A stretch of 64,000 nucleotides of DNA, taken from the NCBI GenBank assembly GCA_944326425.1, contig CALVDX010000002.1, positions 72,902-136,901 on the forward strand, written 5' to 3'. The notes below the pieces were generated by a model that was given only the letters and a program-made list of their open reading frames with translations, had not been told where the DNA came from and did not search any database. The translations under genes were made by a program, and so were the position numbers. This DNA is from Candidatus Gastranaerophilales bacterium (GTDB lineage: Bacteria; Cyanobacteriota; Vampirovibrionia; Gastranaerophilales; Gastranaerophilaceae). Positions 319 to 62,190 of this stretch are shown here, in pieces (positions within the stretch are counted from its first letter, which is position 1; each line of letters begins with the position of its first letter).

Positions 319-380
319 TTTAGTTTTAAAATCATTTTATAATTTACCAATGCAAAAGCTTTTATTCCTTAAAATTGAAA

Positions 381-411
381 ATATATAAAAGAGAGGGGTT
401 GTAATACCCCT
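381..411 (-). terminator. Intrinsic terminator for the minus-strand 1489->494 gene pair
   Basis: On the minus strand, the hairpin gaggggt-attaca-acccctc (393-411) is followed by a T-rich run (390..381). Confidence 0.5.
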
Positions 412-427
412 CGCCATGGGTTATAAT
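399..427 (+). promoter_or_regulatory. Sigma70-type promoter of sRNA candidate copy 1
   Basis: TTGTAA (399-404), a 17-nt spacer and TATAAT (422-427). The same geometry is conserved at 6834-6862. Confidence 0.5.
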
Positions 428-433
428 AATAGT

Positions 434-492
434 ATAAGCTTGCTTGATGCTCCGGGAGAGAACCGGATGACAACCAAGGAGCCATCTTTTTA
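434..492 (+). ncRNA. Candidate ~60-nt sRNA, copy 1 (hairpin plus U-tail), convergent and antisense to the 3' end of the 494..763 transcript
   Basis: A stem (438-446 pairing with 475-482, one bulge, one G-U) encloses the conserved core ttgatgctccgggagagaaccggatg (444-469) and is followed by a T-run (487-491). A second copy lies at 6869-6931 with an unrelated stem sequence. Confidence 0.5.
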
Positions 493-493
493 T

Positions 494-763
494 TTATTTT
501 ATTAATTTTTCATAAGGTTTTATGTTATAAAAATCTTTAGTTTGCGTATATGCATTATCCCTAATTTGATACACATAATCCTGCCCGTTCCATTTTACTT
601 TTAAATTATCAAAACTTAATGAATCATCACGAATTTTATTATTAGGCAGGTTTATATTTTCAACTGCCCTTTTGATATTTTGTTTTAAAACAGGATACTG
701 TTCTATATATCTGTAACTAAGCTTAATTTTAATAATACTCATATTATACATATTTTTCCTCAT
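494..763 (-). CDS. Hypothetical 89-aa protein, candidate partner or immunity protein of the upstream gene
   Basis: An intact ORF whose ATG overlaps the end of the upstream gene in its shifted frame. A 5'-truncated homolog is present at 6918-7122. Confidence 0.55.
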   Translation of the reverse strand: MRKNMYNMSIIKIKLSYRYIEQYPVLKQNIKRAVENINLPNNKIRDDSLSFDNLKVKWNGQDYVYQIRDNAYTQTKDFYNIKPYEKLIK

Positions 764-1489
764 CTAACCAAAAATCTAAAGCATGCCCCAATTCGGGTTC
801 TTGCATATCTGTTAATCGTTTATTCGGATCAAAATCTCCTGGATAACTTCTCCAATGAGCCTTGACAACTGTACCATCACTGCGTTTATATTCTCTGACA
901 TATACTTCACCTCCATTATCGGGACGATACCCCCCCCAAACAGTTCGTTATTATAACGACTATAACCCGCCAGATTATTTGGCATACTAGATTGCGATAC
1001 ATTATTTTTGTCAGTATTTAATTTAATACCTTCGCGTTCGCCTGTTTTTTCATTAAATCTTCTTTTATCATTTGGAGTTGTAATTAATTCACCTCTTCGC
1101 ATTTTTTTGTATATAATCCTTGATATTATATCATTGATTTCTTCTTTGTTTTTCTTTGTATAATAAAAAAACGGCTTCATTTCACGAGCAATTTCTCTGT
1201 CAATAGAATTATTCCATAAATCCATATTACGTTCACCTTGTGGAGCATTGGGGGTTTCATTTTCATGCATATCTCCCAAAATTTTAGCAACTTTTTCCCC
1301 ATAATTGTGCGCTAAATACCATTGCATATATACATGCTTAAATGCGTCTGCTTCGTTATTCCATGTAGAATGTTTACCAGTGCCTATTTCAAAACCATAT
1401 TTTCGTTGCGCTTTATATGTCGCATCTAAAACTTCTTTATTGAAATTTTCTCTCTGATAACTTATAAATTCATTAATTTTATTTTTCAT
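744..1489 (-). pseudogene. DAF-H / HE / MDLxNN-motif protein (DUF6973-like, from memory), frame-interrupted at a G8 tract; possibly phase-variable or a sequencing error
   Basis: The N-terminal frame (1489->) reads ...WNNEADAFKHVYMQWY...GDMHENE...RNMDLWNNS.... After the G8 tract the annotated frame ends at 812. The other frame reads GGEVYVREYKRSDGTVVKAHWRSYPG... to a stop at 744-746. That frame carries a motif shared with the proteins at 42765..43847 and 60736..62190. Confidence 0.55.
930..937 (-). repeat. Homopolymer G8 (C8 on the plus strand) inside a coding region
   Basis: Read directly from the sequence. A tract of 9 or 6 G would fuse the two conserved reading frames. Confidence 0.9.
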
Positions 1490-3861: not shown

Positions 3862-3964
3862 ACGAATTAACGGCGAAATAAATTTGCCTGCGACATATCT
3901 TTTTATAAATCCGAGATATTTCACAAAATATAAATTGGAGATAGACAAAATAAAGGAGGTTAAC

Positions 3965-6169
3965 ATGGTTACCCAGATTGTGGATAATACCGCCATTGAT
4001 GTGGCATCGTTTATTAAGAATAACTATACACCTTACTATGGTGATGACAGTTTCTTAAGCGGCCCCACACAAAGAACAATGTACGTGTGGAGCAAAGTAA
4101 GTGAATTAATGAAGGAGGAGCACAAAAAAGGTGTTCTTGATGCTGATACTTCAACTCCTTCATCAATTACATCACACGGCGCGGGCTACATAGATAAGGA
4201 TAATGAACTTATCGTAGGCTTGCAGACAGACGCCCCGTTAAAACGTGCAATTATGCCAAACGGAGGCTACAGAATGGTTGAAGCTTCTTGTAAAGCGTAC
4301 GGTCTGCCTGTAGATGAAGAACTTAAGACTATTTACACAAAATACAGAAAAACTCACAATGACGGTGTATTTGATGTTTATACCGAAGCTATCAAAAAAT
4401 GCAGACACTCTGCAATTATTACAGGCCTGCCGGATGCTTACGGAAGGGGCAGAATTATCGGTGACTACAGACGTGTTGCACTTTACGGTATCGACAGACT
4501 TATTGAAGAAAAACAGAAAGACAAACTTTCAACCGAAAATATCCCGATGACTGAGGATAATATCAGGCTGAGAGAAGAATTGAGCGAACAAATCCGCGCG
4601 CTTAAAGATATGAAAGAAATGGCGCTCTCATACGGTATTGACATAAGCAAGCCGGCTGAAAGCTTCCGGGAGGCTGTTCAGTTTACATACTTCGGCTACC
4701 TTGCTGCAATCAAAGACCAGAATGGCGCGGCAATGTCACTGGGCAGAGTTTCTACATTCCTTGATATTTATTCGGAAAGAGATCTCAAATCAGGCAAAAT
4801 AACCGAAGAACAAGCGCAGGAAATAATGGACGATTTCATTATTAAATTGAGAATGGTACGTTTCTTAAGAACACCTGAATACAATGACCTGTTCAGCGGC
4901 GACCCGGTCTGGACAACTGAAAGCATCGGCGGCATGACAATGGACGGCAGACCGCTTGTTACAAAAAACTCTTTCAGAATGCTCCAAACACTAATAAACC
5001 TTGGCCCTGCTCCGGAACCGAATATGACAGTTCTCTGGAGTAAAGACCTGCCAAAAGGTTTCAAAGATTACTGTGCAAGAGTAAGTATTGAAACAAGCGC
5101 AATACAGTACGAAAACGACGACCTGATGCGTGAATCTTTCGGCGATGATTACGCAATTGCCTGCTGTGTTTCTCCGCTAATCATCGGTAAAGAAATGCAA
5201 TTCTTCGGCGCACGCGCAAACCTTGCCAAGGCACTTCTTTACACAATTAACGGCGGGGTTGATGAAAGAACCGGCGAAAAAGTTGCAGACTTTGAACCGA
5301 TTACAGACGAATACCTCGACTACGACACAGTAATGTCAAAGTTTGATAAGGTTATGGACTGGCTCGCGTACACTTATGTAAGCGCATTGAATATTATTCA
5401 CTATATGCACGACAAATATAACTACGAAAAAGCACAGCTTGCACTTATGGATTCAAATGCCGTACGCAAACTCGGATGCGGAATTGCCGGTTTCAGTGTT
5501 GTAACCGACTCACTCTCTGCAATTAAATATGCAAAAGTTAAAGTTATAAGAGAAAACGGAATTGCAAAACACTTTGAAATAGAAGGCGACTACCCGAAAT
5601 ACGGAAATAACGATGACAGAGCAGATTCTATCGGGGTTGATTTAGTTAACCGCTTTATGTCAAAGATTGAAAAAATCCAGACATACAGAGGCGCAATCCC
5701 GACACAATCAATCCTTACAATTACAAGTAACGTTGTGTACGGAAAGAAAACCGGTGACACACCGGACGGCAGAGTTGCGGGCGTTCCGTTCTCACCGGGA
5801 GCTAACCCGTTCAACGGCAGAGACTGCAAAGGCGCACTTGCATCACTTTGTTCTGTTGCAAAACTTCCGTTTAAGAATGCTAAAGACGGAATCTCAAACA
5901 CTTTCAGCATTCTGCCGGAAACATTGGGAAAATCAAGAGATGAACAAATCGGCAACCTGACCGGTATGATGGACGGATATTTTGAAAAAGGTGCACAGCA
6001 TTTGAATGTTAACGTTCTTAACCGCGAAACATTGCAGGATGCTATGGAACACCCTGAAAACTACCCGCAGTTGACAATCCGTGTGAGCGGATACGCTGTT
6101 AACTTCATTAAACTCACAAGAGAACAACAGCTTGATGTTATTAACAGAACCTTCCACTCTTCAATATAG
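3965..6169 (+). CDS. pflB: Pyruvate formate-lyase (glycyl radical enzyme)
   Basis: The active-site segment IACCVSP and the glycyl-radical motif RVSGYAVNF are present. The start is placed at ATG 3965, preceded by AAGGAGG (3953-3959). The tracked start at 3884 looks like an upstream over-extension. Confidence 0.95.
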
Positions 6170-6241: not shown

Positions 6242-6523
6242 TTAAGCATTTCTGTCCCAGAACCCCGGAGCATCAATATTGCTGCCAATATCGTTTTTCA
6301 ACCCGTCGCTAAAACTCGGGGCATTAATATTTGCGTCAACCTTTTCTTTAGCCCCATCGTTCATCCTATCGGTGAAACTCGGAGCATTAATATTGTTATT
6401 AACAGCGTTTTTAGCAGCCTGTTCTCCTGTTTTTACGACATCTTCAAGCGAACCCGGTTTCTGACCGTTCTGCCTCATGGCAGCCATACCCATTCTAAAG
6501 AAGGGATTAAAATTAATTGGCAT
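6242..6523 (-). CDS. Small repeat protein with three N-I-[ND]-A-P-[SG]-F-x-D repeats
   Basis: ATG 6523 (MPINFNPFF...) is preceded by AAAGGAAA. An alternative ATG lies at 6541. The repeats read NINAPSFTD, NINAPSFSD and NIDAPGFWD. Confidence 0.55.
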   Translation of the reverse strand: MPINFNPFFRMGMAAMRQNGQKPGSLEDVVKTGEQAAKNAVNNNINAPSFTDRMNDGAKEKVDANINAPSFSDGLKNDIGSNIDAPGFWDRNA

Positions 6524-6623
6524 AATAGTGTTTCCTTTCATTGTTTGTATTTGCTATTGCAAATTATGCTGACAAAATACATAACGGCACATTTTTTAGA
6601 AACTTTAGCCCACCCCACCACAT

Positions 6624-6648
6624 CATATCATATCATATCATATCATAT
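6624..6648. repeat. Pentanucleotide repeat (CATAT)5, which is (ATATG)5 on the transcribed minus strand
   Basis: Five perfect units plus a partial unit, lying between the -10 box and the G-rich tract of the 6242 gene leader. The homologous leader at 32019-32028 has two units. Confidence 0.9.
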
Positions 6649-6653
6649 AGGGG

Positions 6654-6682
6654 ATTATATCAAGGCTTCAGCCCCATGTAAA
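6654..6682 (-). promoter_or_regulatory. Sigma70-type promoter of the 6242..6523 gene
   Basis: On the minus strand: TTTACA (6682..6677), a 17-nt spacer and a TG-extended TATAAT (6659..6654). Confidence 0.55.
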
Positions 6683-6688
6683 CTTATA

Positions 6689-6706
6689 TTTACATTTTGT
6701 TACATT
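6689..6706 (+). promoter_or_regulatory. HLR1-like direct repeat TTTACATT-TT-GTTACATT
   Basis: A perfect match to (G/T)TTACA(T/A)(T/A)-N2-(G/T)TTACA(T/A)(T/A), located just upstream of the -35 of the minus-strand promoter. Confidence 0.5.
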
Positions 6707-6833
6707 GTAATATTCATTAAAATATTGCTTAATATTTCTTAATAATAGCACGTCTTTGGGGGATAATTTTTGAAAGGAAGAAAAAGCATTCAAAAGGAAA
6801 TAATAAAATTGGAAAATATATAAAAGCGAGGGG

Positions 6834-6862
6834 TTGAAATCACCCTCGCGATAGGTTATAAT
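6834..6862 (+). promoter_or_regulatory. Sigma70-type promoter of sRNA candidate copy 2
   Basis: TTGAAA (6834-6839), a 17-nt spacer and TATAAT (6857-6862). Confidence 0.5.
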
Positions 6863-6868
6863 GTTATT

Positions 6869-6931
6869 GATAGTTCTTTTGATGCTCCGGGAGAGAACCG
6901 GATGTCTCTCAAAAGAACTATCGCCTTTTTA
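6869..6931 (+). ncRNA. Candidate ~60-nt sRNA, copy 2
   Basis: A perfect 14-bp stem (6869-6882 pairing with 6909-6922) encloses the same core (6879-6904) as copy 1 and is followed by a T5 run (6926-6930). Confidence 0.5.
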
Positions 6932-7122
6932 ATTGCTCAATCAAAGTACTATAGGGTTTAATATTATAAAAATCTTTGGTTTTATGTTGATGATTATTTC
7001 TAATCTGGTAAACATATTCCTGCCCATTCCAATTCACTTTTAGGTTATCAAAATTTACTGCATCAATTCTACTTTTATTAAGCAGCAAGTTTATATTTTT
7101 AACTGCCTTTTTGATATTTTAT
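6918..7122 (-). pseudogene. 5'-truncated orphan homolog of the 89-aa protein at 494..763
   Basis: The minus frame reads NIKKAVKNINLLLNKSRIDAVNFDNLKVNWNGQEYVYQIRNN...KDFYNIKPY..., collinear with residues ~29-89 of the 494..763 protein. An in-frame TAA lies immediately upstream and no start codon is present. Confidence 0.6.
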
Positions 7123-7257
7123 ATAAACAAAGGTGTATCACGAGCAAGAAACTCAGTGCAGGGGCACGGGGACACATAGCCCCGAATAAATATTATAGTG
7201 GCAGTAGCCAACTACAAGAATATCCGATAAATATTTTTATTATATAATTAATCTGTT

Positions 7258-7980
7258 ATGGAGATTTGCAATTATCACTCAATACAGACAATGGGGACAC
7301 TGGACGGCCCGGGTATCAGGTATGTACTATTTTTGCAGGGGTGTTGTTTCAGGTGTCTTTTCTGCCATAATCCTGATACATGGTTTGGAAAAGCAAACTC
7401 GATGACTACAGATGAATTCGTGCAGGATGTCTTGAAATACAAAGTATTCTATGACTCATCAGGAGGCGGTGTAACTGTTTCCGGCGGTGAACCATTATTA
7501 CAAATACCTTTTTTGATTGAAGCTTTTAGAAAACTTAAAGAATACAGTATCCACACAGCCATAGACACTTGCGGATATATTGATATTACTGATGAATTAA
7601 AAGAACTTATGAAGTATACAAACCTCGTTATGCTTGATATTAAACATCTTGATAATAATATACACAAAGAACTTACCGGCAAGCCGAATGATAAAGTCCT
7701 TCAATTCCTTGATTTTTTAAAAGAAAATGAGGTGCAAACAAGAATACGCCAGGTCTTAACCCCCGGATACACAATGGAGGATGAGTACATTACAAGCCTG
7801 ATAAAACTGCTGAAAAATTACAAATTGGAAAAAGTAGAACTCCTGCCCTATCATGACATGGCGCAGGATAAATACAAAAAACTCGGACTGGAATACAAGT
7901 TAAATGCCCGCATGCCTTCAAAGGAGGAAGTTGCATTAATTAAAGAAAAATTTATACAGGAAGGTTTTAATACAATATAA
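7258..7980 (+). CDS. pflA: Pyruvate formate-lyase activating enzyme (radical SAM)
   Basis: CX3CX2C cluster (GCCFRCLFCHNPDTW) and typical PflA length and motifs (GGVTVSGGEPLLQ). Confidence 0.9.
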   Translation: MEICNYHSIQTMGTLDGPGIRYVLFLQGCCFRCLFCHNPDTWFGKANSMTTDEFVQDVLKYKVFYDSSGGGVTVSGGEPLLQIPFLIEAFRKLKEYSIHTAIDTCGYIDITDELKELMKYTNLVMLDIKHLDNNIHKELTGKPNDKVLQFLDFLKENEVQTRIRQVLTPGYTMEDEYITSLIKLLKNYKLEKVELLPYHDMAQDKYKKLGLEYKLNARMPSKEEVALIKEKFIQEGFNTI

Positions 7981-8015: not shown

Positions 8016-8801
8016 TTATGCCAAGTATTCTTTTTGTCCTCCAAAATTATCAATTCTGGATTCAATCTTATCAATTCTTGCAGTCCATCCTCTGCCAAAA
8101 GTACTCCAGTTTTTCCGTCCCTGCAAAAATGCCAGCCTATTTTCAAGCATTTTTTCAGCATCACCACCGGACTTTGCAAGAAGTTTTTTTGCCCTTGCTA
8201 CACCGCTATGAATTGCTGTATCAAAAACAACATAGGCCAATTCAGCATTCCCGTTTTCGGCTATTTCTTTAGCGCCTGATTTTTCCCAGAACAACTGATG
8301 ATAAACCTGTTTAGCTTCCTCTTTTGTCAAATCCTTGACATTCTTTGATGAAATTTTATTTAATTCACAGTACCAGTCATAAGTTCTCTGCGTAACACCC
8401 ATATTAGTTGCACCGCCCGGATCTTTAGGGTGGTTTACATACCCGCCTTCATCCTTAAAAACATATTCCATTATCGCATCAAATGCCTGCCCTGCATCAA
8501 TATTTGTTGTCCTATCCTGCTTAACAGTACCGGTTCCGGGGATATTGAGAGGGGCCAGCTGTGTTTGCGGAGGCATTAAAACATACCGCATACTATCTAG
8601 CTGCTTTTTGAGGTTAGCAACAATATTATTAAACATATCCATCGAAGTAGTTTGCGGTTGAACAATCGTCTGGTTAATTTCAGTCCCAAAATTCAACAAC
8701 GGCAATTGAGTTTGCAGCATCGGATTATTTATCGCCATACTATCAACTACATAAGCTGTATCCATCGGTTTTATTGCAACATTATAATCATTGCCTGCCA
8801 T
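8016..8801 (-). CDS. GH108-type lysozyme-like protein (COG3926-like) with a ~110-aa N-terminal extension
   Basis: The segment FKDEGGYVNHPKDPGGATNMGVTQRTY matches the GH108 N-terminal signature as I remember it. No signal peptide is visible. Confidence 0.65.
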   Translation of the reverse strand: MAGNDYNVAIKPMDTAYVVDSMAINNPMLQTQLPLLNFGTEINQTIVQPQTTSMDMFNNIVANLKKQLDSMRYVLMPPQTQLAPLNIPGTGTVKQDRTTNIDAGQAFDAIMEYVFKDEGGYVNHPKDPGGATNMGVTQRTYDWYCELNKISSKNVKDLTKEEAKQVYHQLFWEKSGAKEIAENGNAELAYVVFDTAIHSGVARAKKLLAKSGGDAEKMLENRLAFLQGRKNWSTFGRGWTARIDKIESRIDNFGGQKEYLA

Positions 8802-31931: not shown

Positions 31932-32018
31932 TTCGCACACCGCCTTTCGCTGTTTTTAGTACTGCTTTTATATTTCTTACGGCAGATTTCTTCAAAACTT
32001 TAGACCGCCCCGCCCCAT

Positions 32019-32028
32019 CATATCATAT
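32019..32028. repeat. (CATAT)2, the short allele of the leader repeat seen at 6624-6648
   Basis: Sits in the same flanking context: ggggattatatcaagg on one side and a G/C-rich tract on the other. Confidence 0.8.
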
Positions 32029-32033
32029 CGGGG

Positions 32034-32086
32034 ATTATATCAAGGTTTCAGCCATTTTAAAATTCATCTTTACATTTCGTTACATT
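32034..32086 (-). promoter_or_regulatory. Promoter plus HLR1-like box of the 30594..31931 gene, homologous to 6654-6706
   Basis: TG-extended TATAAT (32039..32034) on the minus strand. On the plus strand, TTTACATT-TC-GTTACATT at 32069-32086. Confidence 0.5.
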
Positions 32087-32224
32087 GAAGAATTTGTTAA
32101 GTTTTCGTTACAAACAAATCAGGTTATGCCGTAAAAAAAGTATAAATTTTCAACACCCTGCACTTTCTACGGCACATGTTGGCTTAAAACATAAAAAATA
32201 GTATAATTGAGCAGGTAAAAATTT

Positions 32225-41289: not shown

Positions 41290-41745
41290 TTAATTATTAT
41301 TTCTATTTGCACACACCTGCTCTATCTCTCTGCGCAGTTCTAAATTCTTTGCTTTCAGTTTTAATATTGGCGTTGAAAAAATTATAGTCATACAGAATAA
41401 AATAAACAGGTAAATAAAGTAAAAAGTTATCCAATCATTTTTCATATAAAACACTACTAAATAACATAATATCACAGCAACAATAAGAACATACAATATT
41501 CTATATTTTATCCAGTCAATTGCAAAACATAATTCTTTTGATACCAACATTGGAGCCGTTAGAAATATAATACCTATATTCAAAATACCTAAATCGGTAA
41601 ATGCAATTTTTACATCAGGAAATACGACAAATATATCACCCATGAATCCTAATGTTAATAAAATCACAACTATTTTAGCTATAATATTTACCCATTGACT
41701 AATCCGTTTAGAGAATTTCTCTTTTAAAACAATGTATTTGTACAA
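41290..41745 (-). CDS. Cassette A, small polytopic membrane protein (4 TM) with the conserved tail PILKLKAKNLELRRE
   Basis: Homologous to the C-terminal half of the 58833..59693 protein. A 33-nt stretch is identical at 41339-41371. Confidence 0.6.
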   Translation of the reverse strand: MYKYIVLKEKFSKRISQWVNIIAKIVVILLTLGFMGDIFVVFPDVKIAFTDLGILNIGIIFLTAPMLVSKELCFAIDWIKYRILYVLIVAVILCYLVVFYMKNDWITFYFIYLFILFCMTIIFSTPILKLKAKNLELRREIEQVCANRNNN

Positions 41746-42701
41746 GAGCCATAAAGGGAATAACTCTTTGTATAATCTTCTTCTGCTTCCTTATACAACT
41801 GCTTGCTCCGCTGATGCAGTTTGTATAACGGCAAACGAAAAATCATTACCAGTGCGATTATTATCATGGCAAATTTTACAACATACGTCATCGGGGCGGG
41901 AGTATCGTTTGTTGAAGTTATGGATACCACAACAGAACGATTAACATAATAAATCCCCGCGCCAAAGGCTATTAGAACGTAAACTATATGACGGTATAAA
42001 TAACGAATCAAATCGTTCAATTTTTGTGCGTTTGAAAGAGAAATATAGAATATTAAAAATATTATAACCGGCATTAAGTAATAAAAATCGGTTTCTAGCA
42101 ATAAATCATACCGGACACGGCAAAGATAATAAATAAATATCGGCAAAATAACCGGTAATATTTGGATAAATAAATTGTTGAAGTATTTGTTATTAATCAT
42201 AACTAATTTATTCATTTTGATACAATTTTCAGCCCGCCACAGGAAATATACAACTAAAAAAGCAACGTAATATATCCACATTGCCACAGCCGCAGCCATA
42301 AGCCAGAAGAGCAGCATTACATTTGAAAATAATGTATAAAATGCGTACGCAAAAATGAGCAGAATTAAAGGAAATAAAATAAAAAAAATACTTAATATTG
42401 TTTGTTTTTTTACAGAATATTTTATTTTAAAAAGACAGACTATTAATCTTCTATTAATAGTCAATTTTTTAATCAAAATACCTAATATTATAACAACAAA
42501 CGGAGATGCGAAAAACAACGGATAATGCAAAAAGAGTTTTACGAAATCAAAAATTGCGTTAACAATTCCCGCATTATCCGGAGCATCATAAAAAACAAAA
42601 AACATAGTTGCAAATGCGCCGGAAATAACTGATAATATAAACAGTAATATAGTTTCAAAATTTAAATATTCTTTTATTTTTATCATAATAAATTTAACCA
42701 A
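41724..42701 (-). CDS. Cassette A, polytopic membrane protein (~9 TM)
   Basis: Long hydrophobic ORF directly downstream of 42765..43847. The C-terminal tail PLYKLHQRSKQLYKEAEE is related to the tails of the other three cassette membrane proteins. Confidence 0.6.
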   Translation of the reverse strand: MVKFIMIKIKEYLNFETILLFILSVISGAFATMFFVFYDAPDNAGIVNAIFDFVKLFLHYPLFFASPFVVIILGILIKKLTINRRLIVCLFKIKYSVKKQTILSIFFILFPLILLIFAYAFYTLFSNVMLLFWLMAAAVAMWIYYVAFLVVYFLWRAENCIKMNKLVMINNKYFNNLFIQILPVILPIFIYYLCRVRYDLLLETDFYYLMPVIIFLIFYISLSNAQKLNDLIRYLYRHIVYVLIAFGAGIYYVNRSVVVSITSTNDTPAPMTYVVKFAMIIIALVMIFRLPLYKLHQRSKQLYKEAEEDYTKSYSLYGSCTNTLF

Positions 42702-42764: not shown

Positions 42765-43847
42765 CTATTTCCAACCGGGAATTTTTGTCAACTCTTCTTT
42801 AGTATACTTTACATTAATTAAAAGAACATAATTAGTTAACATGCCTTTTTCCTGCTGAATATAGGCATTATTGTTAAAAACTGTCAACAGGTCATCACCC
42901 GTTCTATATTCAAAATCATAAAAGTCCGGAATTTGAAAATACAAATCACCATTAGTATCAATATATGGGCTAAAAATATGGGCTTCCCCAATAAGCGCAC
43001 CCAAATCAGGATCAGAATTATAAAACTTCAAACCGGGTATTGTTTTCCCTATTAACATACCATTTTTTATTTGTTCTTTATTTTCAACCAATAACCTGAT
43101 TAAAGCGTGATTTTGTTTTACACTTTTCACCAAAGAAGATTCTCTATCCGGTGATATGATTATACAATCATCGGTTATTTTATTATTTATTTGTTTTATA
43201 TGCTGCTTAATATTTTGATTTTTTATATCATTAACCCTAGCCACCGTAGTACCTTCATCAACATTTCGGCAACCTTGCAATGCATATTTGTAATAACGCA
43301 CTGCTGTAGGATATTTTTGAGCATAGCTGCCGGCACCGATACCTGTTTTAGCAGCTATAGCTTGAAACTTATACCCATCCGGACTTCTCAGTACATCCTC
43401 CTTAATATTACCCCCATTCTTTTCTTTAGATTCATTCTTAACAAGTTTTTCCGTTTTCAAATTTGCATCTGCTGCAAATCCTGTCGGCATCCCGTAACGT
43501 TTCTGTACATCTCTGTCCATATAATCATTTATCTCTTTCTCAAGTTCTGATTTGTATTCTTGGGGTGACTTCATTACAGGTTTATTTGGATTCCCGTGTC
43601 CCGCTTTTGAACGGTAATGCGCCCGTACTACTGTGCCATCCTGTCTTGTATATTCTTGAACAAAGACGACATCATCCGAGCTTGCAAGTTCCGAATTTCT
43701 TGGGAAACCGATTTTTCCGTACTGGTAGTCCAATGCCTTCTGGTAATATTTGCCCTCTTCATTATCCATCGCTATTACATCTTCGTGACTAAATATCCGG
43801 TTATCGTTCATAACCTCATTGATGTAATCTCTCAAACTATTTTGCAT
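42765..43847 (-). CDS. Cassette A, soluble protein with conserved N- and C-terminal modules and a variable core
   Basis: The N-terminal ~110 aa and C-terminal ~110 aa are collinear with the 60736..62190 protein. Carries VVFVQEYTRQDGTVVRAHYRS. SD GGGAGG. No signal peptide. Confidence 0.65.
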   Translation of the reverse strand: MQNSLRDYINEVMNDNRIFSHEDVIAMDNEEGKYYQKALDYQYGKIGFPRNSELASSDDVVFVQEYTRQDGTVVRAHYRSKAGHGNPNKPVMKSPQEYKSELEKEINDYMDRDVQKRYGMPTGFAADANLKTEKLVKNESKEKNGGNIKEDVLRSPDGYKFQAIAAKTGIGAGSYAQKYPTAVRYYKYALQGCRNVDEGTTVARVNDIKNQNIKQHIKQINNKITDDCIIISPDRESSLVKSVKQNHALIRLLVENKEQIKNGMLIGKTIPGLKFYNSDPDLGALIGEAHIFSPYIDTNGDLYFQIPDFYDFEYRTGDDLLTVFNNNAYIQQEKGMLTNYVLLINVKYTKEELTKIPGWK

Positions 43848-58832: not shown

Positions 58833-59693
58833 TTATGTGTTTTTATTTTGATACATTTCTTCAACTTCCCTGCGTAACTCTAAATTCTTTGCTTTCAGTT
58901 TTAATATTGGCTCAAACAGAATCAATGTTACTCCTAATAGCACTGATATATATATCACATAAAACATTACCCAATCATTTTTACAGCCGTATATTAACAA
59001 GCAAAGCAATATTATCCAAACTAATAATACATATAATATCTTCTGCTTTAATTTCGCAACTATAGGCACAGCCTTAGGAACAATCAACAGAGGAAAAGTC
59101 ATTAATATTATTATAAAGTTAAAAACCATATTAAATAATAAATATTTTCTATCAAGCATTTCAAACATTAAACCGCACAGAATAAAAGAAAAGAACAATA
59201 CAATACATATAAACACAAAATTTAAAAAATTTATTCCCTTATAACAATGCTTTTTTACACTGCTTTCATATTGCCAATAAGCAAATAGTGATATTATCTG
59301 TATTACAAACGGTATATTAAATAAAAGCATCACAATTATTCCGCTTAAACTACCACACCCTAAAAATAAAAAGGGTAATAAGATTAAAAGTACTATATAA
59401 AATTTATATCTCGCCTTTTTATTATTTTTTAGATAATAAATTTTACTAAGAAAACCGTGATTTAAACTAAAATTAAATATATTTATATACATTGAATACA
59501 AACAAATAAATAACGAAAGCCAGACAAATACAAAAATTGAAACAGAAGCCCAAACAGACTCTTGTTTATCACAACTGTCAACTCCGAATGCAAACAATAA
59601 CAATTCTAGCATGCCGCTCCATAGCACTATTGCATTTAATAAGATTAATAATAGTATTTCTATTATTGGTACTTTTTTTAAGATATTAAGCAT
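58833..59693 (-). CDS. Cassette B, polytopic membrane protein (~8 TM) with the tail PILKLKAKNLELRRE
   Basis: Its C-terminal half is homologous to 41290..41745. A 33-nt stretch is identical at 58879-58911. Confidence 0.6.
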   Translation of the reverse strand: MLNILKKVPIIEILLLILLNAIVLWSGMLELLLFAFGVDSCDKQESVWASVSIFVFVWLSLFICLYSMYINIFNFSLNHGFLSKIYYLKNNKKARYKFYIVLLILLPFLFLGCGSLSGIIVMLLFNIPFVIQIISLFAYWQYESSVKKHCYKGINFLNFVFICIVLFFSFILCGLMFEMLDRKYLLFNMVFNFIIILMTFPLLIVPKAVPIVAKLKQKILYVLLVWIILLCLLIYGCKNDWVMFYVIYISVLLGVTLILFEPILKLKAKNLELRREVEEMYQNKNT

Positions 59694-59752: not shown

Positions 59753-60682
59753 TTACCACAAATAGCCCTGCTTTAACTCCTCTCTTGCATATTCATTTTT
59801 AAAACGCAGCTTTCGCATCGGTTCATAAAGTATAAGCAATACAATATACATCAAGACAAATGCGTAGCAGGTCAAATAAAATATCGTTTTACCTTGAAAT
59901 CCATAGCCTGCAAAAACTAATCCAATCAACAATATTAACGGTATAATAAAATATTTTTTCGATAGACTAACAATTTTAGTCATTCCGGAGGATACAGATA
60001 ATGGCACCAGAAAAAGTATTGTAACAAAGTATAACACCCAAACAAAAACTAACCCTTCATTCTCAATTTCCATATTATGCACCAAGTAAACAGGCAGCAT
60101 TGATACCCCTATTAAAAGCAGCACCTGAATTATGATATTATTTAATACAGTCCAAAGTACCAGTTTGATTTTTTGAGACAAATGTCCTTTTATCCCCCAA
60201 ACCTCATAAATTAACATTATCGGAAATGCAGGTGTATAAAAGTATGACATTATAGCGACAACAATCGCATATAATTGTTTTACCAACACAGTTTTTGCAA
60301 TAAATACATTATCATTACCGGAAACTATTGCAGAATATACAAGAAAAACCTGCAAAAATGACATTAAAAAGTATAACAACCACCTTATTTTAGATTGTTT
60401 TTTCAATTTATAGGCAAAACCTAAAAGCTTTTTATCAGAAGTTAATAAAAAAACACACAAATACGCAGCCGCAACAAAAAATCCCAAATTAGGAAATGTC
60501 ATTAAAGCTGCCAAATCGTCCGGTCGTTTTAAAGAATCTTCTGCATAAGCTACCCACATGTAAAAATATAACATGTACACCAATAACATAAACAAACTAA
60601 TTAAAACCAACAAAACATACTCGATTATTGATCTATTTTTAATAGTTGCTAACATTTGTTCTTTTAATTTAATAAAAGGCAT
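59753..60682 (-). CDS. Cassette B, polytopic membrane protein (~9 TM)
   Basis: Occupies the same position as 41724..42701. Tail: EPMRKLRFKNEYAREE. Confidence 0.6.
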   Translation of the reverse strand: MPFIKLKEQMLATIKNRSIIEYVLLVLISLFMLLVYMLYFYMWVAYAEDSLKRPDDLAALMTFPNLGFFVAAAYLCVFLLTSDKKLLGFAYKLKKQSKIRWLLYFLMSFLQVFLVYSAIVSGNDNVFIAKTVLVKQLYAIVVAIMSYFYTPAFPIMLIYEVWGIKGHLSQKIKLVLWTVLNNIIIQVLLLIGVSMLPVYLVHNMEIENEGLVFVWVLYFVTILFLVPLSVSSGMTKIVSLSKKYFIIPLILLIGLVFAGYGFQGKTIFYLTCYAFVLMYIVLLILYEPMRKLRFKNEYAREELKQGYLW

Positions 60683-60735: not shown

Positions 60736-62190
60736 TTATTTCCAGCCGGGCAAGTTCGAGAGTTCTTCTTTTGTATATGTAATATTCAATAGCAATACAT
60801 AATTTGTCAATCTGCCAATTAATTGTTGTATATTCGCAGAATTATTCATTATAGAAAATAAAACAGCATCTTTACTCCATTTTCTTCTTTCAAAATCATA
60901 GTAATCAGGTATTTGCAGATGTAAATTACCACTGTTATCAATATAAGCATTATACACATGTGTCTCCCCAAGCAGAGTATCTAAGTCTCTGTCATTATAG
61001 AAACTAATATCGTTAACTATCTTACCTTTGAAATTTCCACTTTTTATCGCATTTTGATTTTGAATGATAAACTCTTTTAGACGATTACTGTTTTTCACCT
61101 CTTTTATAAGAGGCGATTGTGGTCTGGGCATAACTACAAGCGTATTTTCATTTATTGTATTGTTCATTTTAAATAAATGCCTTTTTAATATAGGATTACT
61201 AACGGACATCATATAAGTATATTCATTATCCAAATCTTTTTTAATATATTCTTCCGGTTCAAGAGATAGTCTATAATAATTTGCTGATAATGGGCGATTA
61301 CGATTAATCAGTTTAAAACTACTTAAAGTTTTATTTTTTGCAATAGCTGCTTGTATAGGACTCAATAAAATTTCAGGATACAATGTCACAATATTTTTAA
61401 CTTTATCTTTAAACCCTAAATCATTTTTATACAAAAATAATTTATCCATTATTATAGACTTAACATCTTCTGCTGTTATTTGCTTATTTGGCAGTACAGC
61501 TTTTATGTTTCTATACTTATGATCCCTACTATATTCTCCGGCCAAATCATCCAAGACTCCTAAATACCTTCGCTCCGGCAATTCAATATTTTTTATCTCC
61601 ATCTCCCTGCCGGTATAGGGTTTGGAAATTGGTTTAGGTTGGGGCGATGGTTTTATATTTGGTTGTATATTCACTGCAGGTATTTCATTACTTACATCGT
61701 GCGACATTTCTATCTGACCTGTCAGCATTCCGTTTGATGGGTATAACGGGGCTTGATCAGGCTCTATATCACCAGTATCCGGAGCCACATACTCTAATTC
61801 CGTTTCAGGAAGTATATCTATAAGCTCCTGCAGGTAGTCTATATCTTCATCCGCTCTATTTACCCCTGCCCCGTAACGCTCCTGGACATCTCTATCCATA
61901 TAATCATTTATCTCTTTTTCAAGTTCTGATTTGTATTCTTGAGGTGACTTCATTACAGGTTTATCAGGGGCTGCATGTCCCGCCTTTGAGCGGTAATGCG
62001 CCCTTACTACCGTTCCGTCCTGTCTTGTATATTCTTGAACAAAAACAACATCTGATGAGTTTGCACGTTCAGCATTCATTGGAAATCCTATCTTTCCATA
62101 CTGATAATCAAGAGCTTTTTGATAGTACTTTCCTTCTTCATTATCCATCGCTAGTACATCTTCATAGCTGAATATTCTGTTGTCATTCAT
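60736..62190 (-). CDS. Cassette B, soluble protein with conserved N- and C-terminal modules and a longer variable core
   Basis: Collinear with the 42765..43847 protein at both ends. An SD-preceded 11-codon ORF (62225..62190) ends in TAATG, overlapping this ATG. Confidence 0.65.
   Translation of the reverse strand: MNDNRIFSYEDVLAMDNEEGKYYQKALDYQYGKIGFPMNAERANSSDVVFVQEYTRQDGTVVRAHYRSKAGHAAPDKPVMKSPQEYKSELEKEINDYMDRDVQERYGAGVNRADEDIDYLQELIDILPETELEYVAPDTGDIEPDQAPLYPSNGMLTGQIEMSHDVSNEIPAVNIQPNIKPSPQPKPISKPYTGREMEIKNIELPERRYLGVLDDLAGEYSRDHKYRNIKAVLPNKQITAEDVKSIIMDKLFLYKNDLGFKDKVKNIVTLYPEILLSPIQAAIAKNKTLSSFKLINRNRPLSANYYRLSLEPEEYIKKDLDNEYTYMMSVSNPILKRHLFKMNNTINENTLVVMPRPQSPLIKEVKNSNRLKEFIIQNQNAIKSGNFKGKIVNDISFYNDRDLDTLLGETHVYNAYIDNSGNLHLQIPDYYDFERRKWSKDAVLFSIMNNSANIQQLIGRLTNYVLLLNITYTKEELSNLPGWK

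What the first reader, a model, noticed from the sequence alone, without database searches (positions are those of the whole stretch)
371..700. Two-copy ~60-nt sRNA candidate with a conserved promoter, invariant loop, covarying stem and terminator, convergent with the 89-aa gene
Blocks at about 371-700 and about 6808-7125 are homologous. On the plus strand each has a near-consensus promoter: TTGTAA-17-TATAAT at 399-427 and TTGAAA-17-TATAAT at 6834-6862. Each also has a hairpin whose loop is identical (ttgatgctccgggagagaaccggatg, with an inner tccgg/ccgga stem), but the closing stems are completely different in sequence. Copy 1 has 8 bp with a bulge (438-446 with 475-482). Copy 2 has 14 perfect bp (6869-6882 with 6909-6922). 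Each hairpin is followed by a T-run. The single G-U pair in copy 1 works only for the plus-strand RNA. The RNA would be fully antisense to the 3' end or 3' UTR of the minus-strand gene pair, and in copy 2 the ORF stop codon lies inside the stem. This is good comparative evidence for a real RNA gene, possibly a cis-antisense regulator of the toxin-like/partner operon.
Basis: seen in the sequence. Interest (0 to 1): 0.65.

Follow-up and report, generated by a model that had tools for sequence, protein, structure and literature searches.

The report
Convergent hairpin sRNA beside effector gene remnants
The two repeats look like compact genes for a ~55-60-nt hairpin RNA that reads against the 3' end of a swappable effector (toxin-like) gene module, much like an RNA antitoxin, but no one has yet seen the transcript.

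Summary
Windows 371-700 and 6806-7133 are homologous. Each carries an A/T box, a sigma-70-type promoter (TTGTAA or TTGAAA, 17 nt, TATAAT), a hairpin with an identical 25-nt apical part, and a T-run on the plus strand.

Relatives from chicken-gut metagenomes add six more distinct type I units. In two units the surrounding sequence has diverged, yet the -35/-10 hexamers and their spacing persist or improve (TTGACA). Five outer-stem pairs show compensatory changes.

The "89-aa gene" is not a free-standing gene. It is an orphan 3' fragment of the C-terminal module of a ~400-aa polymorphic effector family (LPD3-like or PBECR1 RNase C-termini). Copy 2 is what a deletion left of such a gene between pflB and pflA.

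A second C-terminal type carries its own convergent promoter-hairpin-terminator unit (type II). Single loci suggest further types (III, IV), and a 33%-identical homologue in other contigs has a covarying type V. These structures fold 7-13 kcal/mol better in the antisense-to-gene sense.

No conserved immunity ORF follows. Best reading: a cis-antisense, type-I-antitoxin-like sRNA. Expression and function are untested, because no usable RNA-seq exists. Rfam has no match.

The parts
379..390 (+). A/T box AAATATATAAAA, 8 nt upstream of the -35. It sits in the UP-element position for the plus-strand promoter. On the minus strand it is the U-tract of terminator hairpin A.
   Evidence: Present in all 18 units found by the script, with two or fewer mismatches in two of them, including units where hairpin A is destroyed (L005, L015).
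393..412 (-). Hairpin A (GAGGGGT-6-ACCCCTC) followed on the minus strand by TCTTTTATAT. It is the intrinsic terminator of the minus-strand effector operon, and its loop holds the -35 of the sRNA promoter.
   Evidence: Terminator scan. In L001a the stem keeps a G-U pair only in the minus sense (sequence, fold).
399..427 (+). Predicted sigma-70-type promoter TTGTAA-17-TATAAT of sRNA copy 1.
   Evidence: The hexamers and the 16-17-nt spacing are kept across five different spacer sequences in relatives.
434..491 (+). Predicted sRNA copy 1, about 57 nt. The start is inferred 7-8 nt after the -10. The hairpin is 438-482 with a conserved apical part at 445-469, and the U-tract is 487-491. This is a weakened version of the L005 hairpin.
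   Evidence: Fold -15.5 kcal/mol. Covariance model R1 scores it 56.5 bits, E 9e-13. The L005 variant has 13 bp plus a bulge, -29.5 kcal/mol.
494..751 (-). 85-aa ORF (89 aa if counted from the ATG at 763). It is an orphan 3' fragment of the 'CT-I' C-terminal module of the ~400-aa polymorphic effector family.
   Evidence: 76% identical to residues 318-393 of P0003. Only 2 protein clusters match in 5.8 billion proteins. Full-length homologues are L001 2685-3881, P0003 and P0004.
812..1489 (-). DUF6973 gene, upstream in the same operon. It is frameshifted at an 8-C run (930-937) where relatives have 6 bases. Its intact C-terminus carries the shared YVREYKRSDGTVVKAHWRS module.
   Evidence: Pfam PF22322, E 7e-15. 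Frame comparison.
6814..6862 (+). Upstream half of copy 2: A/T box 6814-6825, hairpin A 6826-6849, and promoter TTGAAA-17-TATAAT at 6834-6862.
6869..6930 (+). Predicted sRNA copy 2, about 62 nt. It has a perfect 14-bp outer stem (6869-6882 with 6909-6922), an apical part identical to copy 1, and a U-tract at 6926-6930.
   Evidence: Fold -28.4 kcal/mol, z -6.0. R1 scores it 82.3 bits, E 9e-20. The hairpin and the adjoining transcribed sequence are identical to L010, which lies behind an intact 398-aa gene.
6918..7125 (-). Remnant (last ~60 codons, ORF 6918-7088) of a CT-I effector gene. The rest was deleted between pflB (3884-6169) and pflA (7258-7980).
   Evidence: tblastn shows homology with in-frame stops. 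L008 and L009 have an intact 397-aa gene at the same syntenic site.

Best explanation
Each block is the 3' end of a cassette that consists of the last part of an effector (toxin-like) gene plus a compact convergent sRNA gene.

The sRNA gene has an A/T box, a sigma-70-type promoter and a start at the first base of a 46-54-nt hairpin. That hairpin, followed by a U-tract, is also its own terminator, so the RNA is about 55-60 nt long.

The effector mRNA, on the minus strand, reads through the complementary hairpin and stops at hairpin A. The sRNA is therefore fully complementary to the effector mRNA's 3' UTR. In one stem class it also covers the last codons.

Inferred mechanism:
- The complementary 7-nt loops (GAGAGAA and UUCUCUC, closed by a G+C-rich 5-bp stem) nucleate pairing.
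- A duplex of about 50 bp forms and is cut by a double-strand RNase such as RNase III.
- The protective terminator hairpin A is lost, and the effector mRNA decays.
- This is a type-I-antitoxin-like cis-antisense control. Convergent transcription into the sRNA promoter may add transcriptional interference.

In this window both copies sit next to decayed effector remnants. They are orphan or relic units: copy 2 is intact and copy 1 has a weakened stem.

Shown here: the architecture, promoter conservation, stem covariation, the strand bias of the structures, and the linkage to C-terminal module type.

Inferred: transcription, pairing in vivo, RNase cleavage, and toxicity of the effector.
For: (1) Promoter. 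All 18 units have TTGNNA, a 16-17-nt spacer and TATAAT, then 6 nt before the hairpin.
- In L005 and L015 the sequence around the hexamers has diverged and hairpin A is gone, yet the -35 becomes TTGACA. L005 also gains a TG-extended -10.
- The second unit of L008 and the L013 unit use still other spacers.

(2) Structure. The type I alignment of 6 distinct sequences is 93.5% paired.
- Five pairs changed on both sides, including C-G to G-C between L005 and L008.
- 0 of 500 shuffles reach the covariation score, and slid controls give 29-43% paired.
- L005 differs from copy 1 by six 5'-arm changes, all of which create pairs with the unchanged 3' arm.

(3) Strand. 13 of 15 units fold better in the sRNA sense.
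- The advantage is 7-10 kcal/mol for three of the four type II units, and 7, 13 and 11 kcal/mol for types III, IV and V.
- The type II outer helix is 100% paired only because of U-G pairs. These would be A-C mismatches in the mRNA sense.

(4) Terminator. A U-tract follows the hairpin on the plus sense in nearly all units. On the minus sense the hairpin is followed by no U-tract, and hairpin A terminates there instead.

(5) Linkage.
- CT-I genes carry type I units (window, L001b, L005, L008, L010).
- CT-II genes carry type II units (L011, L015).
- The PBECR1 genes of L013 and L012 carry other convergent promoter-hairpin candidates.
- 33%-identical homologues on other contigs (L017, L019, L020) carry a convergent ~125-nt RNA with compensatory changes.

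(6) No conserved ORF follows genes with the same C-terminal type.

(7) Units next to intact genes all have strong hairpins (-26 to -30 kcal/mol). Five of eight orphan units are weaker than -21 kcal/mol.

(8) Precedent. par Fst/RNA II uses convergent promoters with a shared terminator stem-loop as the kissing site (PMC7472228). RatA/txpA and SR4/bsrG pair at the toxin mRNA's 3' end and give an RNase III substrate (PMC8167048).
Against: - There is no expression evidence. No RNA run holds the stretch, and the one metatranscriptome containing this organism covers only pflB thinly.
- Type I by itself barely discriminates the strands (about 2 kcal/mol). Copy 1 and L013 slightly favour the mRNA sense, and the L013 inner-stem change G to A is a wobble only in the mRNA sense.
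- Covariation rests on few sequences in two stem classes, so on few independent events.
- A perfectly complementary cis pair does not by itself explain the near-invariant 21-nt apical core.
- Toxicity of the LPD3-like CT-I module is unproven. Only the PBECR1 versions have a predicted RNase (PMC5512222).
- Orphan units persist without a cis target.
- The effector is not the small hydrophobic peptide typical of type I systems.
- P0013 and P0020 homologues lack such a unit.
Confidence: 0.5

Rival explanations
1. The RNA is real and made from the plus strand, but it does not act mainly as a cis-antisense regulator. It binds a protein or a trans target through the conserved apical core. For example it might directly inhibit, or act as a decoy for, the cognate effector C-terminal domain. 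That would make it a type-III-like 'RNA immunity' that takes the place of an immunity gene.
For: - The 21-nt apical core is nearly invariant in 8 distinct type I units while the basal stem changes freely. Cis complementarity alone would not require that.
- The hairpin class tracks the C-terminal module class, and no conserved immunity ORF is present.
- Orphan units persist after loss of the adjacent gene, as orphan immunity genes do.
- The PBECR1 C-termini are predicted RNases, that is, RNA-binding domains (PMC5512222).
Against: - No trans complementarity above shuffled controls was found in the effector or DUF6973 mRNAs.
- Core invariance could also reflect gene conversion between copies or kissing-loop requirements.
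- Physical adjacency alone explains the link between hairpin class and module class.
- Several orphan units are decaying.
- Known type III antitoxins are tandem repeats upstream of the toxin on the same strand, which is not the case here.
Confidence: 0.17
2. It is only transcription punctuation. Hairpin B and hairpin A form a bidirectional terminator or insulator at the end of the effector cassette. The promoter-like hexamers are either non-functional A/T-rich sequence or give a by-product transcript with no regulatory role.
For: - Both hairpins look like terminators.
- Promoter-like sites are common in this A/T-rich DNA, with 37 found against 29.5 expected.
- The P0020 homologue simply shares a bidirectional terminator with a convergent enolase gene.
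Against: - Hexamers and spacing are kept, or improved to consensus, in units whose surrounding sequence has diverged.
- The apical core is conserved far beyond what a terminator needs.
- On the minus sense hairpin B has no U-tract.
- There is no plus-strand gene upstream that would need terminating at copy 2, and the units stay intact as tandem arrays (L008, L015).
Confidence: 0.15
3. The functional structure is in the effector mRNA (minus sense). It would be a 3'-UTR stem-loop with a UUCUCUC loop that stabilises the mRNA or pairs with its own Shine-Dalgarno region. The plus-strand promoter would be incidental.
For: - The minus-sense fold of copy 1 is as good as the plus-sense fold (-16.0 against -15.5), and L013 favours the minus sense.
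- The L013 inner-stem change is a U-G wobble only in the minus sense.
- The CU-rich loop is anti-Shine-Dalgarno-like (inference).
Against: - Types II-V fold 7-13 kcal/mol worse in the mRNA sense and would carry A-C mismatches.
- This reading does not explain the conserved promoter or the U-tract that is specific to the plus sense.
Confidence: 0.1
4. It is a DNA-level element: a conserved recombination boundary used to swap C-terminal cassettes. The hairpins would be cruciform or site features rather than RNA.
For: - The conserved promoter block forms the constant downstream border of otherwise unrelated cassettes.
- The loci are highly plastic, with deletions, orphans and tandem units.
Against: - No recombinase gene is linked.
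- G-U asymmetry indicates RNA-level selection.
- Plain homologous recombination needs no hairpin.
Confidence: 0.05

Closest known systems
par (Fst / RNA II) type I toxin-antitoxin locus of Enterococcus faecalis pAD1
   Same: Both have convergent promoters and a very short antitoxin-type RNA (about 40 nt there, about 55-60 nt here). In both, the terminator stem-loop is shared and complementary between the two transcripts, and its loop is the proposed first contact (PMC7472228).
   Different: Fst is a 33-aa membrane peptide, whereas here the gene is a ~400-aa polymorphic effector or its remnant. par also has 5' direct repeats that let RNA II mask the ribosome-binding site, and no second complementarity was found here. 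The loops here have no YUNR U-turn motif. There is no sequence or Rfam similarity.
txpA/RatA and bsrG/SR4 type I systems of Bacillus subtilis
   Same: [quoted passage not shown] The duplex is an RNase III substrate and the mRNA is degraded (PMC8167048). This is the mechanism proposed here.
   Different: RatA and SR4 are longer (roughly 180-220 nt, from my own knowledge) and overlap 75-120 nt including coding sequence. Their toxins are small hydrophobic peptides. Here the overlap is essentially the 3' UTR and a single hairpin.
Polymorphic toxin / polyvalent protein systems with C-terminal cassettes and cognate immunity genes (Zhang et al. 2012, PMC3482391; Iyer et al. 2017, PMC5512222)
   Same: A conserved N-terminal and glycine-rich region carries interchangeable C-terminal modules (LPD3-like CT-I and CT-II, PBECR1 RNase). 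Orphan C-terminal fragments and strain-to-strain cassette turnover are also seen.
   Different: The slot directly after the C-terminal module, where an immunity ORF is expected, holds a convergent sRNA unit of a matching class and no conserved ORF. The trafficking route of these proteins is unknown, and the N-terminal module has no Pfam family.
Type I systems with non-peptide nuclease toxins (SymE/SymR, RalR/RalA of E. coli)
   Same: They show that RNA antitoxins can control soluble, nucleic-acid-targeting toxins rather than membrane peptides. RalR/RalA is mentioned in PMC8167048; the SymE details are from my own knowledge.
   Different: SymR overlaps the 5' end and ribosome-binding site. RalA acts in trans with Hfq. 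Neither is linked to swappable C-terminal modules.

Membership tests
Type I toxin-antitoxin system, 3'-overlap / convergent class | Antitoxin RNA gene with its own promoter, convergent to the toxin gene and complementary to the 3' end of its mRNA | tested here: met
   Met at sequence level only. A conserved promoter-hairpin-U-tract unit lies antisense to the 3' UTR and last codons. The minus-strand terminator lies beyond it.
Type I toxin-antitoxin system, 3'-overlap / convergent class | Both RNAs are actually transcribed | tested here: inconclusive
   No RNA run holds the stretch. Metatranscriptome X21 gives only thin pflB coverage and zero depth at the element.
Type I toxin-antitoxin system, 3'-overlap / convergent class | Toxin is a small (usually under 60 aa) hydrophobic peptide | tested here: not met
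   The adjacent ORF is a hydrophilic 85-aa fragment of a ~400-aa protein family.
Type I toxin-antitoxin system, 3'-overlap / convergent class | The protein is toxic and the RNA neutralises it | not testable with these tools
   This needs expression experiments. Only the PBECR1 versions have a predicted RNase domain (PMC5512222).
par / Fst-RNA II family | Second complementarity (direct repeats DRa/DRb) that masks the toxin's translation start | tested here: not met
   No duplex above shuffled controls between the sRNAs and the effector mRNA 5' regions. The sRNA is a single hairpin with no extra sequence.
Type III toxin-antitoxin (ToxIN-like) | Tandem array of ~34-36-nt RNA repeats upstream of, and co-directional with, an endoRNase toxin gene | tested here: not met
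   Only single units, or two tandem full promoter-containing units, are found. They lie downstream on the opposite strand.
Any curated Rfam family | Match at the family's gathering score | tested here: not met
   No matches in the whole window at gathering thresholds. Only chance-level hits (E 0.04 or higher) with the permissive search on type I, II and V units.
Intrinsic (bidirectional) terminator | G+C-containing hairpin followed by a U-tract on the strand terminated | tested here: met
   Hairpin B plus a U-tract on the plus strand, and hairpin A plus a U-tract on the minus strand. Hairpin B has no U-tract on the minus strand, so it is not itself bidirectional.
Polymorphic toxin / polyvalent effector cassette | Conserved N-terminal part with interchangeable C-terminal modules and orphan C-terminal fragments | tested here: met
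   P0003-P0010 share 64-100% coverage with different C-termini. Three aligned members hit LPD3 and four hit PBECR1. The window's 85-aa ORF and the 6918-7125 remnant are orphans.
Polymorphic toxin / polyvalent effector cassette | Cognate immunity protein gene directly downstream of the C-terminal module | tested here: not met
   No conserved ORF lies downstream in L001, L008, L010, L011, L012, L013 or L015. Only short non-conserved ORFs are present. P0013 (L016) does have a 243-aa downstream ORF.

The most novel reading that the evidence does not exclude
In this effector family the immunity slot of a polymorphic-toxin-type cassette is filled by RNA. Each C-terminal module class travels with its own ~55-nt (up to ~125-nt) convergent hairpin sRNA that neutralises the cognate effector. 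Neutralisation would work by destroying its mRNA or by binding the protein. Orphan sRNA units would then be retained like orphan immunity genes. This would be a new hybrid between polymorphic toxin systems and RNA-antitoxin (type I or III) systems.
Probability: 0.3. Interest if true: 0.85.

Novelty: new variant of a known kind. Interest (0 to 1): 0.6.

Why it matters
If the RNA is real and controls the adjacent gene, it extends RNA-antitoxin logic in two ways. It moves from small membrane peptides to large, modular effectors with swappable C-termini (LPD3-like, PBECR1 RNase). It also gives a first functional handle on LPD3-type domains, whose role is unknown.

It would add a compact, easily recognised sRNA gene architecture: an A/T box, a consensus promoter, and a transcript that is little more than its own terminator hairpin. 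That pattern could be searched for in metagenomes.

It offers a simple test system. The sRNA promoter lies outside the ORF and can be mutated without touching the protein. Two hairpin classes allow specificity swaps.

Tried and rejected
- **Rfam.** The gathering scan of the whole window and permissive scans of type I, II and V units found nothing.
- **Exact-pattern collection scans.**
  - Genome contigs gave one related MAG contig (L001).
  - Metagenome contigs gave three hits (L002-L004). These are unrelated terminator-like hairpins in a phage-like contig and are chance matches.
  - Three viral-contig scans gave nothing.
- **Expression.** No RNA run holds the element. A metatranscriptome (X21) found through pflB has only thin pflB coverage.
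- **More variants from DNA runs.** Laying diverged runs on copy 1 showed only variants already seen, plus a probable assembly artefact at the hairpin in X15.
- **Trans targets.** RNAduplex of the sRNAs against effector and DUF6973 mRNAs gave mostly z-scores within ±1 and no consistent site.
- **Structure of the 85-aa ORF.** AlphaFold2 with 3 sequences gave pLDDT 46. This is too poor for a fold search, which was not run.
- **Protein family searches.** Pfam and PHROGs on the 85-aa ORF and on the 398-aa protein gave no significant family. PDB sequence search gave nothing.
- **Coding potential of the sRNA.** The 7-codon ATG..TGA frame in copy 1 is lost in L005 and L008 (ATG becomes GGG or GAG), so a coding role is rejected.
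- **Taxonomy.** Cluster look-ups returned no names. The organism is an uncultured, low-G+C, flagellated (FlhA) chicken-gut bacterium.
- **More type I copies in the window.** The covariance model with filters off found only the two known copies.
Full report
**1. The observation**

The two blocks are real. Direct repeats join 371-469 to 6806-6904 (82% identity), 486-543 to 6925-6982, and 554-694 to 6993-7133. The 25-mer TGATGCTCCGGGAGAGAACCGGATG occurs exactly twice in the window, with none expected by chance.

The promoter scan lists TTGTAA-17-TATAAT at 399-427 and TTGAAA-17-TATAAT at 6834-6862. Such sites are common in this A/T-rich DNA (37 found against 29.5 expected in 8 kb), so a single site proves nothing.

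- Copy 1 folds as 8 outer pairs with a bulged G442 around an inner UCCGG/CCGGA stem and a GAGAGAA loop (-15.5 kcal/mol, z -1.6).
- Copy 2 has 14 perfect outer pairs (-28.4 kcal/mol, z -6.0).
- T-runs follow at 487-491 and 6926-6930.

On the minus strand this hairpin is followed by TCTTTTATAT, so it is an intrinsic terminator for the minus-strand operon. The minus-strand mRNA should therefore read through the complement of the conserved hairpin before it stops.

**2. What the neighbouring 'gene' is**

The 85/89-aa ORF (494-751/763) has only two protein clusters as relatives among 5.8 billion proteins.

In a related MAG contig (L001) the same sequence is the C-terminal ~80 residues of an intact 398-aa protein. 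A search with that protein found a polymorphic family:
- P0003 and P0004 have the same C-terminus (called CT-I here).
- P0005 and P0006 have a different last ~70 residues (CT-II).
- P0007 to P0010 carry PBECR1, a predicted BECR-fold RNase of phage and conjugative-element polyvalent proteins (PMC5512222).
- Three aligned members hit LPD3, so CT-I and CT-II are probably divergent LPD3-like modules.

The shared N-terminal module (…DVVYVRAYTRDDGTPVRAHYRSK) has no Pfam family. It also ends the intact DUF6973 protein.

In the window:
- The DUF6973 gene (812-1489) is frameshifted by an 8-C run where relatives have six bases.
- The 85-aa ORF is an orphan 3' fragment of a CT-I module.
- Copy 2 lies between pflB and pflA, exactly where L008 and L009 carry an intact 397-aa gene. 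It is what a deletion left behind.

**3. More copies of the RNA unit**

A script over all fetched DNA found 18 units with the same layout: AAATATATAAAA, about 8 nt, TTGNNA, 16-17 nt, TATAAT, 6 nt, hairpin, T-run. Eight type I hairpins are distinct in sequence.

Two observations argue that the promoter itself is under selection:
- In L005 (a variant of copy 1) and in L015 the sequence around the hexamers has diverged and hairpin A is destroyed. Even so the -35 becomes TTGACA, and L005 gains a TG-extended -10.
- The type I unit of L008 and a further unit in L013 have yet other spacers with the same hexamers and spacing.

The A/T box is kept even where hairpin A is gone, which fits an UP-element role. 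The hairpin begins 6 nt after the -10. The transcript would therefore start at the first base of the stem (G or A) and be little more than its own terminator.

**4. Structure and strand**

On a structural alignment of six distinct type I sequences:
- 93.5% of cells pair.
- Five outer-stem pairs changed on both sides. Four separate the two stem classes, and one (C-G to G-C) separates L005 from L008.
- No shuffle out of 500 reaches the covariation score.
- Sliding the partner by 1-3 columns drops pairing to 29-43%.

L005 differs from window copy 1 by six changes in the 5' arm, each creating a pair with the unchanged 3' arm. Copy 1 is thus a weakened version (-15.5 against -29.5 kcal/mol). The sample is small and falls into two clades, so these are few independent events.

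Type I alone hardly tells the strands apart (about 2 kcal/mol). Copy 1 and L013 lean the other way, and the L013 inner-stem change is a wobble only in the mRNA sense.

The other classes decide the strand:
- Type II (GAGCCACCTTACGTGAGGGGTTTGGTCCCTCAACCGGAGGTGGCTC and variants) is 100% paired only through U-G pairs.
- Three of the four type II units fold 7-10 kcal/mol better in the sRNA sense (2.5 kcal/mol for L015).
- The candidate units next to PBECR1 genes (types III and IV) fold 7 and 13 kcal/mol better, and type V 11 kcal/mol better.

The covariance model R1 finds only the two known copies in the window (82 and 56 bits). It recovers the untrained L001a and L012a units at 47-49 bits.

**5. 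Linkage to the effector module**

- Type I units follow CT-I sequences (window copies, L001b, L005, L008, L010).
- Type II units follow CT-II genes (L011, and two in tandem in L015).
- The PBECR1 genes of L013 and L012 are each followed by a different convergent promoter-plus-hairpin candidate.
- Orphan units with no adjacent module also occur (L001a, L012a, type I in L013, type II in L008 and L012).
- Homologues only 33% identical, on other contigs (L017, L019, L020), have a convergent TTGACT or TTGATA-17-TATAAT promoter. It drives a ~125-nt three-hairpin RNA with its own terminator just 3' of the stop codon. Between the two versions there are U-A to A-U, U-G to G-U and A-U to G-C changes.
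- No ORF is conserved downstream of genes with the same C-terminus.
- Two homologues lack such a unit: P0013 has a 243-aa downstream ORF, and P0020 shares a terminator with enolase.
- Units beside intact genes all have strong hairpins (-26 to -30 kcal/mol). Five of eight orphan units are weaker than -21 kcal/mol. This trend fits selection tied to a cis target.

**6. Mechanism**

The best-supported reading is a cis-antisense sRNA that pairs with the 3' UTR of the effector mRNA. In the stem class of copy 2 it also covers the last codons. The complementary 7-nt loops, closed by a G+C-rich stem, would nucleate pairing. The ~50-bp duplex would be a double-strand RNase substrate, and cleavage would remove terminator hairpin A and expose the mRNA to decay.

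This is the logic of RatA/txpA and SR4/bsrG (PMC8167048). Its geometry, with convergent promoters and a shared complementary terminator stem-loop, is that of par Fst/RNA II (PMC7472228).

Every step after the sequence architecture is inferred. The near-invariant 21-nt apical core is not required by perfect cis complementarity. That keeps open a protein-binding or trans role ('RNA immunity'), for which I found no trans target.

**7. What could not be done**

- No RNA-seq covers the element.
- Rfam has no related family.
- The structure model of the 85-aa fragment was too poor to use.
- The organism could not be named. It is an uncultured, low-G+C, flagellated chicken-gut bacterium.

**8. Verdict**

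There is good comparative evidence for a plus-strand sRNA gene family, in several sequence classes, attached to the 3' ends of a polymorphic effector family. In this window both copies flank decayed remnants.

It works like a 3'-overlap type I antitoxin but fails the membership feature of a small peptide toxin. It also occupies the place of an immunity gene in a polymorphic-toxin-type cassette. I rate it a new variant of a known kind, with interest 0.6.

Noticed in passing
window 930-937 (within 812-1489, minus strand): The DUF6973 gene is broken by a homopolymer run of 8 C (8 G on the coding strand), where L001 has CCCTCC and L005 has 6 C. The -2 frame continues into the conserved C-terminus …GGYRPDNGGEVYVREYKRSDGTVVKAHWRS…. 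This could be a pseudogene, a phase-variable tract or an assembly error. The same 225-aa call is present in contig L006.
   Followed up: partly
window 42765-43847 (-) and 60736-62190 (-): These are two further paralogues carrying the same N-terminal module (55-56% identity to P0003 residues 3-112; repeat 43491-43790 / 61870-62169). Each is followed by same-strand ORFs (41724-42701, 41290-41745; 59753-60682, 58833-59693) with no Pfam family. Those ORFs may be protein partners or immunity genes of other effector types.
   Followed up: partly
window 6584-6720 and 31979-32100: This is a second repeat family (81-84% identity) containing an (ATCAT)n microsatellite. It holds the best promoter-like site of the region on the minus strand (TTTACA-17-TATAAT with TG, 6682..6654), upstream of the 99-aa ORF 6242-6541.
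   Followed up: no
window 6242-6541 (-): This 99-aa ORF has NINAPSF(T/S)D-like repeats and a weak, sub-threshold PT-VENN hit. An 85-aa ORF occupies the corresponding position in L008 (4477-4734), next to the intact effector gene. Its function is unknown.
   Followed up: no
L008 4198-4411, L015 1320-1689, L011 1690-1786, L012 3660-3762: These loci hold a second hairpin class (type II) with the same promoter block. It lies next to CT-II effector genes, and occurs as orphan units in tandem with type I. L015 has two tandem type II units, with a run of N in the second one.
   Followed up: yes
L013 1800-1930; L012 3495-3625: Next to the PBECR1 effector genes there are different convergent candidates. 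L013 has TTGAAA-17-TGcTATAAT followed by a ~95-nt hairpin RNA that ends at the stop codon. L012 has a ~100-nt long hairpin (-38.7 kcal/mol in the antisense sense against -25.5) with a weaker promoter-like TTAAAT-17-TAATAT, which I read by eye.
   Followed up: partly
L017 2960-3130; L019 and L020 2930-3100: A ~125-nt three-hairpin convergent RNA candidate with its own consensus promoter and terminator lies behind a 475-aa homologue on other contigs. Several compensatory changes separate L017 from L019. There is no Rfam match.
   Followed up: partly
L001 3990-4140 and 5915-6070; L012 3780-3930: A ~150-nt flank upstream of the sRNA units is also repeated within and between these loci. This suggests segmental duplication of larger blocks in those genomes, which is not seen in the window.
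   Followed up: no
window 447-470: Copy 1 contains a 7-codon ATG…TGA frame (MLRERTG) inside the sRNA, which extends to 16 codons in copy 2. The ATG is lost in L005 and L008 and there is no Shine-Dalgarno sequence, so it is not a conserved coding feature.
   Followed up: yes
window 8016-8801 (-): A GH108 lysozyme-family gene lies next to pflA. It is conserved in synteny in L008 and L009. No other phage genes were noted nearby.
   Followed up: no
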